Shown here piece after piece: positions 31,488 through 57,759 of a stretch of 64,000 nt of DNA. The notes beneath the pieces are model-generated. The model searched no databases, was not told the origin of the DNA, and worked only from the letters and a program-made list of their open reading frames with translations. Every line of letters begins with the position of its first letter. Position 1 is the stretch's first letter. The stretch is from Eledone cirrhosa (lineage: Eukaryota), in NCBI GenBank assembly GCA_964016885.1, contig OZ024747.1, forward strand, positions 68,138,001 to 68,202,000, in the 5' to 3' direction. The position numbers were made by a program, and so were the translations under genes.

Positions 31488-31982
31488 TATGTAGATAAAT
31501 CTACCAAGAGTTTACGGTAGTGTCCAATCCGTATGAAGAACTCAATGTATTCCGGATATCATGGAAAGAAGAGATGTAATGAAAATCCAATTTCGGTGAA
31601 AGATAAACGGTATACAGAGTCAAGATAAAATATTAAACAAATAATGAACAAACAATTCCTTATATTAAACAAAAAAAGTTCACTATTAGATATCTTGACT
31701 CTGTATACCGTTTATCTTTCACCGAAATTGGATTTTCATTACATCTCTTCTTTCCATGATATCCGGAATACATTGAGTTCTTCATACGGATTGGACACTA
31801 CCGTAAACTCTTGGTAGATTTATCTACATAATTTTGCTCCTATTTTCACGGAAATATTCGTATTTTTGTACTGTATGTGTGTATTAATTTTATATTTATG
31901 TATAAACATATATATATGTATGATTTTGTAAACCCATATACATTTAGTTGAGCTCTTTCAATTGTCCATCATCCATATCACA

Positions 31983-34424
31983 ATGGAAAAACAATATTTA
32001 GGAACCTCCTTAAAAAACATACCAATACCTTCTAAGGACGACTTCTTACTCCTTATGATTCAGAAAACTAATAATTTTATCAGAAGGGTTAGATGGAGAG
32101 CCTACCACTTTGATAGAAAATCTAAACAAGCAGATCGGAAATATATGTATGATTTCAACACTTACAAGAATCCACCACACAACTTTTTACTTGAAGACTT
32201 CGAGAAAGACCTTTTTAATTTAATTAAACACCTCAAATTTAAAAAGTATAAATCCGTCTTTCAAAAGGACCTTGATTCTACCCTATTGGACCTAAAAAAG
32301 TCTAAAAAAATCCATGTCCACTCGGACAAAACTGGTAACTTGTATCATATGGATATTGAACATTATAATGAGTTCATATATAAAGAACTCAGAAAAAATT
32401 ATAAAAAATCTAATAATGCGTCACTCACCAACATCAACAACAAAACACACAACATAGTAAAAAAACTAAATATTGAAGATAGAACTGAACCTTTGGCATT
32501 GAGAAGTCCACACTTCAACCTGAAAGATCACAAATCTAACTTTAACTCTAATCCTTCTATTAGACTTATATGTCCCTCCAAATCAGATATTGGAATAATT
32601 AGCAAAAAAATTTTAGATAGAGTCATCCCACAAATAAGAAAATACGTTATTTTACCACTCTGGGAAAACACCTCCCAGGTAATTAATTGGTTTAAAAATA
32701 TTAGGTGTAAATCTTCTGCTTCTTTCCTACAGTTTGATATAGATAATTATTATTCTTCTATATCACCCATACTCCTGAACAAAGCATTAATATTTGCTAA
32801 AAATAGATCTAATTTAACTTCGGATGACATTAACATTATTACACATGCTAGACAAACACTTATTGAATTTCAGAATGAATACTGGACCAGAAACACTTAT
32901 AGTAATCTTTTTGATATTACTATGGGTTCAAGCGATTCTGCCCAAATTACTGATCTTGTGGGCCTCTTTCTCCTTTTCAACATAAATGCCTCTTTTCCCC
33001 ACCTCAAAGGTGGTTTATATCGTGATGACTGTCTTCTTCTTTCTAACAACCTTAGCCTTTCAGAAATCGAAAAAAACAAAAAGCATATTAGAACTTTCCT
33101 TAAAGACTATTATAATCTTAATATTACTTTTGAAAAAACAAGTAAAGTAGTAAATTTCCTAGATATAACTTTAGATTTAGCTACGGGTATATACCAACAT
33201 TACCATAAACCTAACCAAAACTTACATTACATACACTCACAATCTAATCACCCTAAATCTATCCTTAAAAACCTTGCATATAATATATCACTTAGAATTT
33301 CTAACCTTTCTTCTAACCAAGATGTATTTGATAAAAATGCGACCTTTTATAATGAAGCTCTAGATAGAAGTGGCCACAAAAATAGATTAGAGTATATAAC
33401 TTCTACTAAAAATACTGAAAACATACAGCATAATATTACCAACAAACACCAAATGAAAAGTACACACCTAAATGCCACCCACAGTATACCCCAAAATACT
33501 AAATCTTCTAATATAAAGTATAGCAACCCTCAAAAAACTACTCATCATAAGACTATAATAAATATTAATAATAAAACTCCTAATAAAAAAGATAAAACAC
33601 CTAAATCTACAAATATAACTAAAAATAGTTGTGGTGAGATCATTAACATTATTCCTCCTAGTAAAAATCATGATACAACATATAAAAATAATAAAAATAA
33701 TAAACAACATAGAAACCGTAATAGACGAGTTACTTGGTATAATGCTCCTTTTAATTTACAAGTTAAGGATAATATTGCTAAAAAATTTTTTTATATCCTT
33801 GAGAAAAACTTCCCGCCAAACCACAAATACCATCAAATCTTAAATAGGTCTACAGTTAAATTCTCATATTCTACAACAAATAACATAAAACAAAATATAA
33901 GTGCATATAATGCATATAAATGTAAGAAAACTATAAGTATACCACCAGTACATCAAATTAACAATAATATCTCCTCAAATACAGAATTAACGAAAGGATG
34001 TAACTGTAGAAACAAAACAAACTGCCCATTAAAAGGGAATTGTCTTGTTAACAACATAGTCTATAAATGTAATGTTAAAACTAAAGATTCTATTTGCTCA
34101 TATATAGGAGCTACCTCTAACAATTTTAAGACAAGGTATAATACCCACAAACATAGCTTTAAAAATGCCGCACTGGCTAATACAACATCTCTAGCAGAAA
34201 AAATCAATAGTTATAAAAATAAAAATATAAAATATGATTTGACCTGGAGTGTGCTCAAAAGAGCCACCCCTTATCAAAATAATAGAAAGGAATGTAGATT
34301 ATGTTCCCAAGAACTATTTGAAATAATGAAGTCTAGGGATATCTTATTAAATAAAAGACAGGAATTAATTATATCGTGTAATCATAAACTAAAAAAAACA
34401 TTTAAATATTATAAACCTAATTAA
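31983..34424 (+). CDS. PLE polyprotein: reverse transcriptase plus C-terminal GIY-YIG endonuclease
   Basis: QFDIDNYY, MGSSDS, YRDD, NFLDITL, YHKP (RT); CNC-x5-CPLxGxC; IVYKC...YIGAT...FKTRY (GIY-YIG); CxLC and terminal CxH. First ATG at 31983; the frame is open from before 31962. Confidence 0.93.
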   Translation: MEKQYLGTSLKNIPIPSKDDFLLLMIQKTNNFIRRVRWRAYHFDRKSKQADRKYMYDFNTYKNPPHNFLLEDFEKDLFNLIKHLKFKKYKSVFQKDLDSTLLDLKKSKKIHVHSDKTGNLYHMDIEHYNEFIYKELRKNYKKSNNASLTNINNKTHNIVKKLNIEDRTEPLALRSPHFNLKDHKSNFNSNPSIRLICPSKSDIGIISKKILDRVIPQIRKYVILPLWENTSQVINWFKNIRCKSSASFLQFDIDNYYSSISPILLNKALIFAKNRSNLTSDDINIITHARQTLIEFQNEYWTRNTYSNLFDITMGSSDSAQITDLVGLFLLFNINASFPHLKGGLYRDDCLLLSNNLSLSEIEKNKKHIRTFLKDYYNLNITFEKTSKVVNFLDITLDLATGIYQHYHKPNQNLHYIHSQSNHPKSILKNLAYNISLRISNLSSNQDVFDKNATFYNEALDRSGHKNRLEYITSTKNTENIQHNITNKHQMKSTHLNATHSIPQNTKSSNIKYSNPQKTTHHKTIININNKTPNKKDKTPKSTNITKNSCGEIINIIPPSKNHDTTYKNNKNNKQHRNRNRRVTWYNAPFNLQVKDNIAKKFFYILEKNFPPNHKYHQILNRSTVKFSYSTTNNIKQNISAYNAYKCKKTISIPPVHQINNNISSNTELTKGCNCRNKTNCPLKGNCLVNNIVYKCNVKTKDSICSYIGATSNNFKTRYNTHKHSFKNAALANTTSLAEKINSYKNKNIKYDLTWSVLKRATPYQNNRKECRLCSQELFEIMKSRDILLNKRQELIISCNHKLKKTFKYYKPN

Positions 34425-41494: not shown

Positions 41495-41734
41495 CATATA
41501 TATATACACACACACACATAACTAAATAACACGTACGCATGCATGTTAAGTGTAAACATGTAACAGTCCACACACACATGTATATACATGACACACAACA
41601 ATACCAACATAGGCACATGTGTATGTGTGTGTGTGTGTGTGTGTGTGTCGGGTTCAACAGGGGGCGGGGGTGTAACCACAGTTAGTAAGGCACTCAATAC
41701 ATCAGTAGTAAATGTAAAAGTCAGGTTGATATAT

Positions 41735-41765
<31 letters not shown>

Positions 41766-41811
41766 TAAAACTTGAAGCCATTTTTCTATATTAAATTTGT
41801 TTATATATACA

Positions 41812-43308
41812 TATCATCATCATCGTTTAACGTCCATATTCCATGCTTGCATGGGTTTGGACGGGAGTTTTCCCACTTGAGGCAAGAGTGGTTGTCTTGC
41901 TCGCATAGGACTGTCTGGCGGGTTTTCTACAGCTTGATGCCCTTCCTAACACCAACCACATTTACAGTGTGGGGCTGGGAGGTTTTTACCGTGTTACCTA
42001 CACAGCCACATTACAGCGTGGACTGTGTTTTTTTGTCGTGACACCTACACGACCTCATTTGTTTTGGCCTGGATGTTGTGGTCCCAACATAACTTTACAT
42101 TGAAAGGGGCGGTGTGGGTGAGGTGGGGGTAGTGGGACAGGGGTGTATTTTGTTAGAGGTGCCTACTGACTGTAGTAGGTTTTACTTTGTATTTAGGTAA
42201 GGCGGGTCTTCTCTATTACTGAGTACCGCCAAAGATCTCGGTCCAGTGACATTGTCTTGGAGAGGTGTAAGTGTGTGAGGTCGGAATTTATCAAGTCGTC
42301 CCAGGTTTTTCTGGGTCTGCCTACTCCGTAGCTACCGTCTATCTTTATTGCCCTGCACTTTTTTATACAGCTGTCGTCTTTCATGCACATCACGTGACCA
42401 TACCAATGTAGCCTTCTCTCGAGTAAACAACATCTGATCCCTCTAATTCTAATTTTTCCCTTAGTTCGTTAATGCTTTGCCGTTCACGTATATTACTATT
42501 ACACATCCAGCGGAGCATGCAAGCTTCGTTCCTCTCTAGTCTGCGTATATCCTCTGCACACAATGCCCAGGTCTCACTGCCATGCAACATTGCTGTTCGT
42601 ATGCAGGCATCATACAGCCTGCCTTTCATTTTTAGGGAGAACCCTTTAGCGGCTAATAGTGGTATAAGATCTCTGAACTTTTTCCATCCAGTTCTGACTC
42701 TAGCTACTGTACTTTCAGAGCACCCTCCCCCACTGCTGATTTTGTCACCTAGGTAACGGAAGCTGTCCACTATTTCTATAGAACCCTCTGTGCAATTGAA
42801 AGAGCTAGTATTTTGTGGGCACTTGCTGCTACTTATTGCACCAGAGCACCGGCTACATGTAAAATCTATGTTCTTAGTTAGCTTACCTGTGATCCCACTA
42901 CATCTTTTATGCATCCATACTTTGCATTTGGGACATAAAATGGAGTTTCTACCTACGCCTTTCCTACACACTGAGCATGGCCATTTCCCGGATGGGACCG
43001 GCGCCCTATTTTCCTTCCTACAAACTAGAACTTTAGTCTTAGCCAGGTTAATTTTAAGGCCTTTTGATTCTAGGCCGTGCTTCCATGTTTAGAATTTCTT
43101 CTCTAGTTCGGCCATTAATTCAGCTATGAGTGTTAGATCATCTGCGTATAGCAGTTCCCATGGGCAGCCGGTCTTGAACTCCTCTGTTATAGCCTGAAGG
43201 GCAATAATAAATAGTAGGGGGCTGAGAACAGAGCCCTGATGGACGCCAACTTTTACGCTAAACTCTTCACTATATTCGTTGTTAATTCTAACCTTGCTGA
43301 CTGTTTCT
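41812..43308 (-). mobile_element. RTE-clade LINE, 5'-truncated
   Basis: Reverse complement of the 14280-15780 family; ORF pieces 42390-42971 and 42193-42393. Confidence 0.93.
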
Positions 43309-43373: not shown

Positions 43374-43569
43374 GGAAAATGTTTGACCCCGACGGCAGAG
43401 CTCAAGCCGTTTCGACGGCTATTTCTGTCCAGAAACATTTTCCTATTACCCACTCTACTACCCTAAGTATTGAGTACTCTGGTGCATTATGGTCTATCTG
43501 GTTCCTTACCACACCTCCTTTGTTATATATATATATATATTTATATAAACAAATTTAATATAGAAAAAT

Positions 43570-43621
43570 GGCTTCTACAGGACTAAAACTGTTTCATTCG
43601 AATGAAATCATCAGGAAAGCC
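43570..43621 (-). ncRNA. Type I hammerhead ribozyme in a non-coding PLE-type fragment (43541-43982)
   Basis: Minus strand reads GGCTTTC / CTGATGA / TTTC-ATTC-GAAT / GAAA / CAG-N8-CTG / TA / GAAGCC. Confidence 0.8.
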
Positions 43622-43979
43622 AACTGGCAAGTGGTATTTGTAAGTTTTCTGATGGTTGGGGAAGGTGGTGATTTTGAGAATGTGTAGAGGACATTGGCTG
43701 AGGGATTTTAATGTGTCATTGTATTGTATATTTTTAGAAATATACAATACAATGACACAGATCTAAGGTTCATATTCACACTTAAATACCTATAGACACT
43801 CATACATACTGACGCCCACACATTTTTAAGGTTCATTTGTTCTAAGTAAACAAAGAGATTTCATTAAGTGGCTGTATTGTCAGGATCTGGTCAAAAATTC
43901 ATTATTAAATTTATTGTATACACTCTACTAATGTATTGAGTACCTTACTCACTGCGGTTACCCCAGATTGAACCTGGGA

Positions 43980-44054
<75 letters not shown>

Positions 44055-55456: not shown

Positions 55457-57759
55457 CCTCCTTTTGTCTGAGGCTGGGTCTGGTATGCAAGGATTGTTTC
55501 CTGGGTGTTATTTTGCAGCGCCTGCCCGCCGGGGTGTTAAGACTTGTTGCAGGGAGATCCAGTGTACTGTTTCACTCTTCATCCTTAACCCATCTGAAGA
55601 AGGATATTTTTAAGCGATGTGTACAACTTATCGCTGTTTCAGCTCTGCTGTTGATGAGCTCGTGGGGTGCAGTTATGATGTGGTAGAGCTCCATGAGGCA
55701 AAGATCGCATTTCCTCTTGAAGTTGTACGGTGCAGCCCTGCCGACAATCTCCCAGTGCGTGGAGAAGCTGATGTTTAAGTCCTTTAGTGATGTGATGTAG
55801 TCCGCGAGCGAAGTGGAGTGCCTTAGTTTTCTATTTGTGAAAGAGTGGAGATGTGTTCGAAACCTAATTTTGAACGGGCCGGAGGTAGCCTCTATATAAT
55901 GTTTAACGCTATTGTGGCTAGCCGTTACCCATGTCTCTCAAGTGTATCCCCTTACCCAGCAGAAAAACCTACCTTAAACTGCTTATAGACGCTACTAATT
56001 CGTTTATACGGCGAGTCAGGTGGAAGGCCTACCACCTGGATAAGAACACCCGTAACCTTCCTGAACCCAAAGAGAGGTATGGCTTCAAAACATACCGAAA
56101 CCCACCGCACAACACCTTACTGGACTCCTTTGAAGAGGACCTGCTGAAAATGATCCAAAACGTTAAGCTCAGAAAGAAACACCAATGCAGCAATCCATTC
56201 TTAATGTCCCTTGATACACTAATAACTAAGATCAAGAATGACCCGCACCTCTTCGTCACCTCCGACAAAACCAAAAAGCTGTACAAGATGGACGCGAGTG
56301 AGTATAAAAATTCATCTATAAGGAACTACACAAAGACTACAAAAAGACACCCTCTAGTACCCTAAATGACATCGAGTTGGGAAGGATATAGTCACCAGCT
56401 TAGAAATAGAAAAGTACACTAACCCATACGTCCCTCTGACGCCTAAATTCTCTCTTAAGGATCACAAATATGACTTTAATGAAAGCCCCTCTATTAGACT
56501 AATATGCCCCTCTACATTAGATATAGGTAAGATTAGTAAAGTGATCCTCGACAGAGTACTACTGGAGCTTAATAGAAAGGCTAAGGTCTGCCTCTGGGGC
56601 AACACCGACCAGGTCATAAATTGGTTCACAGAGTTGCCGGATAAAGCCACCCTGAAATTCATCCAGTTTGATATAGATAGTTACTACGCCTCTATCTCCC
56701 CCATACTCTTAAATAAGGCACTTATCTTAGCTAGATCTAACACTAGCCTCACTAAAAAAGAAATAGACATAATTCTAGCGGCACGTAGAACCATTATCCA
56801 GTTCGAAGGCTCCCACTGGACCAGAACCAACCATCCTGATAACTTCGATGTCACGATGAGGTCCAGTGACTCAGCGCAAGCAACTGACCTGGTCGGGATA
56901 TACCTCCTACATAAGCTTAGGGAAGAAATACCGGCCCTACAAGGAGGTGTATATAGGGACGACGCCCTGTTTACCGTTAAGAACCATAGCCCCCATAGGA
57001 TAGAGAACCTTAACAAACATATACACAGGTTCTGTAAGTCATACGGCCTATCCGCTGCCCCCTTAGAGGATACTGCTTGACTGATAGGGTTATATATAGA
57101 TGCACTATTACTAGCCACAATAGCGTTAAACATTATATAAGGGCTACCTTCGGCCCGTTCAAAATTAGGTTTCGAACACATCTCCACTCTTTCACAAATA
57201 GAAAACTAAGGCACTTCACTTCGCTCGCAGACTACATCACATCACTAAAGGACTTAAACATCAGCTTCTCCACGCACTGGGAGATTGTCGGCAGGGCTGC
57301 ACCGTACAACTTCAAGAGGAAATGCGATCTTTGCCGCATGGAGCTCTACCACATCATAACTGCACCCCACGAGCTCATCAACAGCAGAGCTGAAACAGCG
57401 ATAAGTTGTACACATCGCTTAAAAATATCCTTCTTCAGATGGGTTAAGGATGAAGAGTGAAACAGTACACTGGATCTCCCTGCAACAAGTCTTAACACCC
57501 CGGCGGGCAGGCGCTGCAAAATAACACCCAGGAAACAATCCTTGCATACCAGACCCAGCCTCAGACAAACGGATGCAGCAAAAAAAAAAAAAAAAAAAAA
57601 AAATTGTCCGGGAAAGACTGCCCTAACACCGGCTAGAGTTACCTCCCTTGACCTGCTGCAAAATCAAAACAAGATATTTTTGCGAGCAATGAACCTTGAT
57701 GTGGATTTAACCCCAAAAACTCTTTCCGAGCAATATAAGGAACACTTGTGATTATTTAT

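What the first reader, a model, noticed from the sequence alone, without database searches (positions are those of the whole stretch)
41774..41807. A 34-nt genomic fragment that starts exactly at a hammerhead cleavage site
Seen: GAAGCCATTTTTCTATATTAAATTTGTTTATATA is identical to the sequence immediately 3' of the UA cut in the 43570-43621 (-) ribozyme, but is preceded by unrelated bases. An oppositely oriented motif-bearing tail lies at 41648-41728. Inference: cDNA of the 3' cleavage product, a second independent fossil of in vivo self-cleavage.
Basis: partly seen in the sequence, partly recalled or inferred. Interest (0 to 1): 0.72.

Follow-up and report, generated by a model that had tools for sequence, protein, structure and literature searches.

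The report
Penelope ribozyme cut-site DNA fossils
This 34-base piece is an inverted twin of the end of a neighbouring Penelope-type jumping-gene copy and was likely copied locally rather than being an independent fossil, but elsewhere in the same genome U6 RNA copies are fused exactly at this ribozyme's predicted cut, which suggests that it does cut in living cells.

Summary
The match is real: 34 of 34 bases, starting exactly after the predicted GUA cut. It is not independent. The shared 26-mer occurs only twice in 3.0 Gb, both at this locus. The two copies are the arms of one tail-to-tail palindrome, later split by two insertions.

The family is the hammerhead-bearing end repeat of a Penelope-like element. 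In 183 loci, 271 of 301 arms run past the cut, and 191 end about 36-48 bases upstream, at a likely transcription start. Three-base windows show no spike at the cut. At single-base resolution the young subfamily has an excess (17 loci against 4) and the window's own subfamily does not (8 against 8).

The better fossils lie elsewhere. All 3 U6 snRNA chimeras with this family join exactly at the cut, as do 5 loci from two other hammerhead families. The scan noted U6-at-cut chimeras before, in another genome.

Verdict: cleavage in vivo is likely real but rare among templates. This fragment is more likely a local fold-back copy (about 0.55) than cDNA of cut RNA (about 0.3).

The parts
41774..41807 (+). 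The finding: 28-nt arm (first base after the predicted cut onward) plus TATATA; inverted twin of the neighbour copy's 3' end
41767..41773 (+). 7-nt junction flank between a TA run and the fragment; also present in the neighbour copy at -73..-67 over a private base (weak hint of local templating)
   Evidence: 9 occurrences in the window, both strands; 24 of 27 relatives carry another base there
41648..41730 (-). Diverged, separate copy of the family's 3' tail; not shown to belong to the same event
41802..43308 (-). 5'-truncated non-LTR retrotransposon (RTE-like, label recalled) inserted in the TA centre between the two arms; 95.6% identical to the copy at 14279-15790
   Evidence: RVT_1 in the sister copy's ORF and PHD at 42393-43088
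43375..43520 (.). Short two-armed copy of a second hammerhead-bearing repeat family ('family Y'), also inserted in the TA centre; its GAAA-stem-GUC half lies at 43413-43391(-)
43542..43899 (-). Neighbour copy, sense arm (-324 to +34 relative to the cut) of the Penelope-like end repeat, subfamily A
43570..43621 (-). Type I hammerhead motif: helix I, core, short helix II with U.U at 10.1/11.1, helix III with CUAG-type loop, GUA triplet; cut predicted between 43576 and 43575
43903..43990 (+). Inverted 5' arm (tail, about +12 to +91) of the neighbour insertion, the usual head-to-head Penelope arrangement
12300..12376 (+). Copy of subfamily B of the same family (helix I with compensatory changes)

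Best explanation
The 34-nt piece is an inverted twin of the 3' end of the Penelope-like hammerhead copy 1.75 kb away, likely made by local fold-back copying at a TATATA run, and its start at the predicted cut is likely a coincidence. Shown: exact identity, shared private variants, locus-only occurrence, and TATATA on the inner side of both arms. Inferred: the two arms once formed a compact tail-to-tail palindrome (28-bp arms around TATATA), later pushed apart by a family-Y copy and a LINE that inserted in the TA centre. Family-level mechanism. Shown: most sampled arms run through the cut and end 36-48 nt upstream. Inferred: that site is the transcription start and most templates were uncut RNA. 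Shown: U6 chimeras join at the exact cut. Inferred: a small share of transcripts self-cleave in vivo, and their 5'-OH product is ligated to U6 or copied to its end.
For: The 26-mer occurs only at this locus and the five-T variant 4 times genome-wide, 2 of them here. Both arms share the same unusual inner junction. The neighbour copy carries 14 private substitutions in 347 sites (4.0%), so two arms of equal age would be identical with probability only 0.06-0.12. The neighbour's own same-event inverted arm differs from its sense arm in their short overlap. The flank AAAACTT matches the neighbour over a private base. A DNA-level inverted duplication that includes non-element flank exists at another family locus (L289), and compact tail-to-tail palindromes exist (L254, L215). 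The window's subfamily has no exact-base excess at the cut (8 against 8, by eye). 271 of 301 arms pass the cut. A TATA-like motif lies at -75/-76 in 26 of 31 matches.
Against: The fragment ends on exactly the predicted base; a random stop would do so only about 1 time in 30-60 (estimate). Subfamily B shows a single-base excess (17 against 4 loci, p=0.007; pooled with A 25 against 12, p=0.047). Three loci have both arms ending at the cut (L275-L277). L254 is a tail-to-tail palindrome whose short arm also starts at the cut, though it was selected by that property and is TA-ambiguous. The identity argument is only about 3-fold, and the 7-nt flank match has a chance of roughly 0.05-0.1 (from one search counts), with other possible sources.
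Confidence: 0.55

Rival explanations
1. The piece is a run-off cDNA made on a self-cleaved RNA during the same complex insertion as its neighbour: both strands of one TA tract were primed, one cDNA on uncut RNA (ran to -324) and one on the 3' cleavage product (ran off at the cut). It would be a true cleavage fossil, but not an independent one.
For: Exact start at the cut. Cut RNAs of this family do get copied: U6 chimeras at the cut in 3 of 3, including one of the window's subfamily (L298). Exact-base excess in subfamily B. Arms of one insertion can share the five-T variant (L297).
Against: No exact-base excess in subfamily A (8 against 8). Zero differences, although the neighbour has aged 4% (p 0.06-0.12). 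Shared inner junction. It needs three cDNAs in one event, in the rarer tail-to-tail order.
Confidence: 0.3
2. Same-event cDNA on uncut RNA that was 5'-truncated at this base by chance or by microhomology.
For: Arms end at every position near the cut: 24 of 301 at -20..-3, 11 at -2..0, 8 at +1..+20. Sense sequence starting at the cut also arises without cleavage when cDNA folds back on helix I (33 exact cases in subfamily A; L118).
Against: No helix-I fold-back arm or microhomology is present at this junction. The identity and age argument applies here too.
Confidence: 0.12
3. One reading: an independent second insertion of a cleavage-product cDNA.
For: Exact start at the cut; a family tail lies just upstream in opposite orientation.
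Against: Two of only four five-T copies in 3.0 Gb lie within 1.8 kb of each other, against 5,462 exact copies of the common three-T form. The upstream tail is a diverged, different copy.
Confidence: 0.03

Closest known systems
Penelope-like element pseudo-LTRs with hammerheads, tails and inverted 5'-truncated arms (PMC4209133, parts 1-2 of 4 read; PMC8557442 and PMC3846280, passages read)
   Same: Type I hammerhead in the end repeat; optional tail at one end; head-to-head inverted arms; (TA)n targets; TATA-like motif upstream; tail running into an RT/GIY-YIG-type ORF (subfamily B). PMC3846280 names tail-to-tail order as the rarer product of self-priming.
   Different: Helix II here is 3 bp with U.U at 10.1/11.1 (136 of 138 arms) instead of the conserved G-C, and helix III is 4 bp with an 8-nt loop. 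Those papers give no genome-wide map of 5' ends against the cut in the parts that I read.
PAc (Poseidon) of Anolis in vitro (PMC11167929, parts 1-2 of 4 read)
   Same: [quoted passage not shown]
   Different: That study found no RNA-seq reads beginning or ending at the cut. Here rare DNA fossils at the exact cut are seen.
U6/LINE-1 chimeric pseudogenes made by RtcB ligation (PMC6789731 and PMC13247085, passages read)
   Same: U6 3' end with its T run joined directly to retroelement sequence; ligation needs a 2',3'-cyclic phosphate on U6 and a 5'-OH partner.
   Different: The partner here is a Penelope-like repeat, the junction is the predicted hammerhead cut (which yields 5'-OH; own knowledge), and some chimeras carry Penelope-type inverted arms. 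These chimeras are at other loci, not at the finding.
Non-LTR retrozymes (10.64898/2026.07.22.740005, part 1 of 5 read)
   Same: Short type I hammerhead units derived from Penelope end repeats.
   Different: The copies sampled here are mostly dispersed one- or two-armed insertions, not tandem monomers.

Membership tests
Type I hammerhead ribozyme | CUGANGA and GAAA core with a UH cleavage site | tested here: met
   Window copy; triplet GTA in 130 of 138 arms selected on the core
Type I hammerhead ribozyme | Helices I-III with compensatory change | tested here: met
   Helix I differs between subfamilies on both strands (AGATTC/GAATCT 26; GCTTTC or GGCTTC/GAAGCC 17); helix II TTC/GAA in 122 of 138 with at least 12 loop variants. 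Copies are related, so counts are not independent events. A single copy folds as a three-way junction but no better than shuffles (z -0.81).
Type I hammerhead ribozyme | G10.1-C11.1 pair typical of canonical and minimal motifs (PMC4209133) | tested here: not met
   U.U in 136 of 138 arms; no Rfam match in the window. It is therefore a variant motif, not a canonical member.
Type I hammerhead ribozyme | Self-cleavage at the predicted bond | not testable with these tools
   Indirect only: U6 junctions at the predicted base
Penelope-like element pseudo-LTR | End repeat and tail continue into an RT plus GIY-YIG ORF | tested here: inconclusive
   Seen for subfamily B: in L081 and L266 the tail runs into an ORF 43-50% identical to window ORF 31932-34421, whose Atlas neighbours carry GIY-YIG, RVT_1 or HTH_animal in part of their members (a lead). 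Pfam gave no significant hit (GIY-YIG E=0.019 in L257). No ORF-linked copy of the window's subfamily A was found.
Penelope-like element pseudo-LTR | Inverted 5'-truncated arm, optional tail, microsatellite target | tested here: met
   118 of 183 loci have an adjacent inverted arm; 3' ends fall near +15-31 or +91, in TA or CA runs
cDNA of a hammerhead 3' cleavage product (the finding itself) | 5' end exactly at the cut | tested here: met
cDNA of a hammerhead 3' cleavage product (the finding itself) | Excess of such ends in its subfamily over a control position | tested here: not met
   Subfamily A: 43 against 59 (3-nt windows, p=0.14) and 8 against 8 (exact base); met only in subfamily B
cDNA of a hammerhead 3' cleavage product (the finding itself) | Origin independent of the neighbouring copy | tested here: not met
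U6 chimeric retrocopy made by RNA ligation (other loci) | U6 3' end with T run joined with no spacer to a 5'-OH-type end | tested here: met
   L274 full-length U6 (Rfam 115 bits) and L298 (97 bits); L299 holds a 5'-truncated U6 not listed at the gathering score; junctions. Ligation by RtcB itself is inferred from PMC6789731.

The most novel reading that the evidence does not exclude
Penelope hammerheads in this animal do self-cleave in vivo, but only in a small share of transcripts. Most insertions are copied from uncut RNA back to a start site about 45 nt upstream, while rare cut products are ligated to U6 and retrotransposed, so U6 chimeras map ribozyme cut sites across families (3 of 3 for this family; 5 loci in two other families; 2 more at weaker motifs). 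The probability given is for this family-level reading; that the 34-nt piece itself is such a fossil is only about 0.3.
Probability: 0.75. Interest if true: 0.7.

Novelty: new variant of a known kind. Interest (0 to 1): 0.52.

Why it matters
[quoted passage not shown] This genome holds a readable record of both sides: read-through of uncut RNA as the rule, and rare products that begin on the exact base, U6 chimeras above all. It names the bond to test for a motif with a non-canonical helix II. The 34-nt piece alone adds little; it is local repeat debris with an ambiguous end.

Tried and rejected
Rfam found nothing in the window. Pfam and PDB sequence searches did not name the Penelope-like ORFs.

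RNA evidence: no RNA holder listed. Contigs of 4 runs did not span the junction and say nothing either way.

An extra G at the -46 ends as a copied cap was considered and left undecided: the same base and 1-4 further ones are explained by fold-back on helix I.

Five long stretches with paired copies (L257-L261) gave no full-length element; L257 is a local duplication. A shared upstream extension beyond about -460 was not found for subfamily A. L289 first looked like two cut-starting arms but is one DNA-level duplication, so it was counted once. The 41648-41728 tail as partner of the fragment was rejected (different variants).

Literature searches for U6 snRNA + hammerhead + chimera + Penelope and U6 snRNA + self-cleaving ribozyme + retrotransposon + chimera + ligation returned 0 papers. 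The library lacks most subscription papers, and I read no supplements.

Full report
Coordinates relative to the predicted cut: 0 is the first base after GUA; upstream is negative.

1. Observation. Window 41774-41807(+) equals 43575-43542(-) over 34 nt, and identity stops exactly at the predicted cut. There are two matches in the window and none in 100 shuffles. Six of the 34 bases are TATATA. Upstream lie a 7-nt flank, a TA run and the reversed 3' tail of a diverged family copy at 41648-41730.

2. The family. The window lies in a 3.0-Gb genome. A 451-nt query gave 3,724 candidates, of which 40 were scored. Exact patterns give 5,462 copies of the post-cut 21-mer of subfamily A, 2,530 of a tail 24-mer and 5,117 subfamily-B copies with native upstream sequence.

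Among 138 arms with a full core, helix I changes on both strands between subfamilies. Helix II is TTC/GAA in 122 with a variable 4-nt loop, position 10.1/11.1 is U.U in 136, and the triplet is GUA in 130. One copy folds as a three-way junction but no better than shuffles, and Rfam has no match. It is a variant type I hammerhead whose cutting is untested.

In two loci of subfamily B the tail runs on into an ORF 43-50% identical to the window ORF at 31932-34421. The Atlas neighbours of that ORF carry GIY-YIG and RT-type families in part of their members; Pfam gave no significant hit. With inverted arms, optional tail and TA targets this matches Penelope-like elements as described in PMC8557442 and PMC3846280 (passages read). 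The ORF link is shown for subfamily B only.

3. The fragment is not independent. The 26-mer is found twice in the genome, both here. The five-T variant is found four times, twice here. Both arms have TATATA on their inner side. Between them lie a 1.5-kb 5'-truncated LINE, 95.6% identical to another window copy, and a short copy of a second hammerhead family. Removing these leaves a tail-to-tail palindrome with 28-bp arms (inference).

The neighbour has 14 private substitutions in 347 sites against 29 relatives, so equal-aged arms would be identical with probability 0.06-0.12. The flank AAAACTT recurs in the neighbour at -73..-67 over a private base; it occurs 9 times in the window, so this is a weak hint. 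A scan of 332 sense arms listed 15 tail-to-tail rows, several of them alignment noise or other subfamilies. L254 and L215 are compact palindromes, and L289 is a DNA-level inverted duplication that includes flank.

4. I aligned 194 loci (the first 100 rows, all on contig 1) and dropped 11 duplicates, leaving 183 loci and 301 arms. Their 5' ends were: 17 beyond -49, 191 at -48..-36, 39 at -35..-21, 24 at -20..-3, 11 at -2..0, 8 at +1..+20 and 11 further 3'. So 271 of 301 run past the cut.

Two biases apply. The subfamily-A anchor cannot see sense starts after the cut. The tail anchor picks a variant rich in short copies, so the share at -45 is inflated (compare). A TATA-like motif lies at -75/-76 in 26 of 31 matches. 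With the usual 30-nt spacing (own knowledge) this puts the transcription start at about -45, on the peak. The peak is therefore likely run-off at the start of uncut RNA, in line with PMC11167929 (parts 1-2 read); stalling at helix I is an alternative.

Genome-wide pattern counts, classified by eye. Subfamily A gave 73 rows at -2..0 (43 junctions, 30 internal indels, 11 of them one amplified event) and 89 rows at the control -10..-8 (60 junctions, 58-59 independent, 29 indels), p=0.14. Subfamily B gave 85 against 78 rows. So there is no spike at 3-nt resolution. The patterns exclude helix-I fold-backs; these number 33 exact cases in A and put sense sequence at the cut without any cleavage.

At single-base resolution (base before the anchor not the family's A), A gives 8 against 8 and B gives 19 rows, 17 loci, against 4 (p=0.007; 16 against 4, p=0.012 without one fold-back-like row; pooled 25 against 12, p=0.047). 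Only one control position was used per subfamily. In three B loci both arms end exactly at the cut (L275-L277).

5. Better fossils. One row was a U6 3' end fused to base 0. A search for U6 3' ends gave 108 matches, 100 listed: 30 in one tandem array and 70 dispersed. By eye, three dispersed rows join this family, one for each of three subfamilies, and all three join at base 0 (L274, L298, L299). If any of about 57 positions were equally likely, that is 5e-6. Rfam confirms U6 in L274 and L298; L299 holds only the 3' part.

L274 and L299 carry the family's inverted arm. In L300 both arms cross the U6 junction, which suggests that the junction was in the template. Two rows (L300, L301) join family Y at its GUC site; native copies show a full hammerhead with a U3.A8 core. 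Four rows (3 loci, not fetched) join a third family right after GAAA-CCGG-UA, with helices I and II recovered by folding. L315 and L316 join similar motifs whose helix I is weak. Many other dispersed rows join non-hammerhead repeats or were not assigned.

PMC6789731 (passages) shows that RtcB joins the cyclic-phosphate end of U6 to 5'-OH RNA. Hammerhead cleavage yields 5'-OH (own knowledge). Ligation of U6 to the cut product followed by retrotransposition is thus the likely route (inferred). I found these chimeras before consulting the scan's notes; two notes report the same in another genome.

6. Weighing the fragment. For local fold-back copying: perfect identity to an aged neighbour, a shared inner junction, the flank hint, a DNA-level precedent, and no exact-base excess in its own subfamily. 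For cDNA of cut RNA in the same event: the exact end, proof that cut RNAs are copied (including a subfamily-A U6 chimera), and L254. I put these at 0.55 and 0.3, chance truncation at 0.12, and an independent insertion at 0.03. These are judgements, not computed posteriors.

7. Novelty and verdict. The fragment is ordinary Penelope debris with an ambiguous end. The family-level picture, read-through as the rule with rare cut products marked by U6, was not found in print (0 papers; limited library). It is a variant of known U6/LINE-1 chimeras and was noted before by this scan. Interest 0.52.

Noticed in passing
L274:781-887(-), L298, L299 (G000 C10, C5, C2): U6 snRNA copies fused with no spacer to the first base after the predicted cut of three subfamilies of this family; two carry Penelope-type inverted arms.
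   Followed up: yes
L300, L301; window 43375-43520; native copies L010, L039: Family Y is a second hammerhead family with a U3.A8 core, a long helix II and a GUC site; two U6 chimeras join at its predicted cut, and in L300 both arms cross the junction.
   Followed up: partly
G000 C3:87128457, C4:274669677 and 274669867, C4:280260136; L315, L316: U6 joined right after GAAA-CCGG-UA motifs of further repeat families with U3.A8-type cores; helix I is clear in one family and weak in two.
   Followed up: partly
L303, L304, L305 (compare L306, L251): Three U6 chimeras join one LINE-like 3' region at the same base, with no hammerhead core upstream: an unexplained RNA break or template-switch hot spot.
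   Followed up: no
L307, L308, L302: Two U6 chimeras share one junction in an unassigned repeat (both arms cross it in L307); L302 joins a sequence that starts like the post-cut strand of the window-457 family (7-nt match only).
   Followed up: no
family-wide: 5' ends pile up 30 nt below a TATA-like motif, at the 5' edge of the ribozyme; many arms show 1-4 extra bases from fold-back on helix I.
   Followed up: partly
window 457(+), 11506(-), 12742(+), 26722(+): Other hammerhead-like motifs of different repeat families, with short palindromic helix III at 457, 11506 and 12742; 11506 and 12742 flank the 12303 copy as an inverted pair.
   Followed up: no
window 31932-34424(+) and 55572-57460: Penelope-like ORFs (830 aa open; a second one frameshifted, with an inverted 5' piece); no Pfam hit.
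   Followed up: partly
G000 C19:31778864-31840389: Tandem array of at least 30 U6 copies with about 1.8-kb spacing.
   Followed up: no
G000 C1:83679806-83691723; C18 and four small contigs: Tandem array of at least 12 subfamily-B copies about 1.08 kb apart; one internally deleted copy amplified to 11 places.
   Followed up: no
L293 (G000 C20:20231418): A family copy with a 7-nt insertion exactly at the predicted cut.
   Followed up: no
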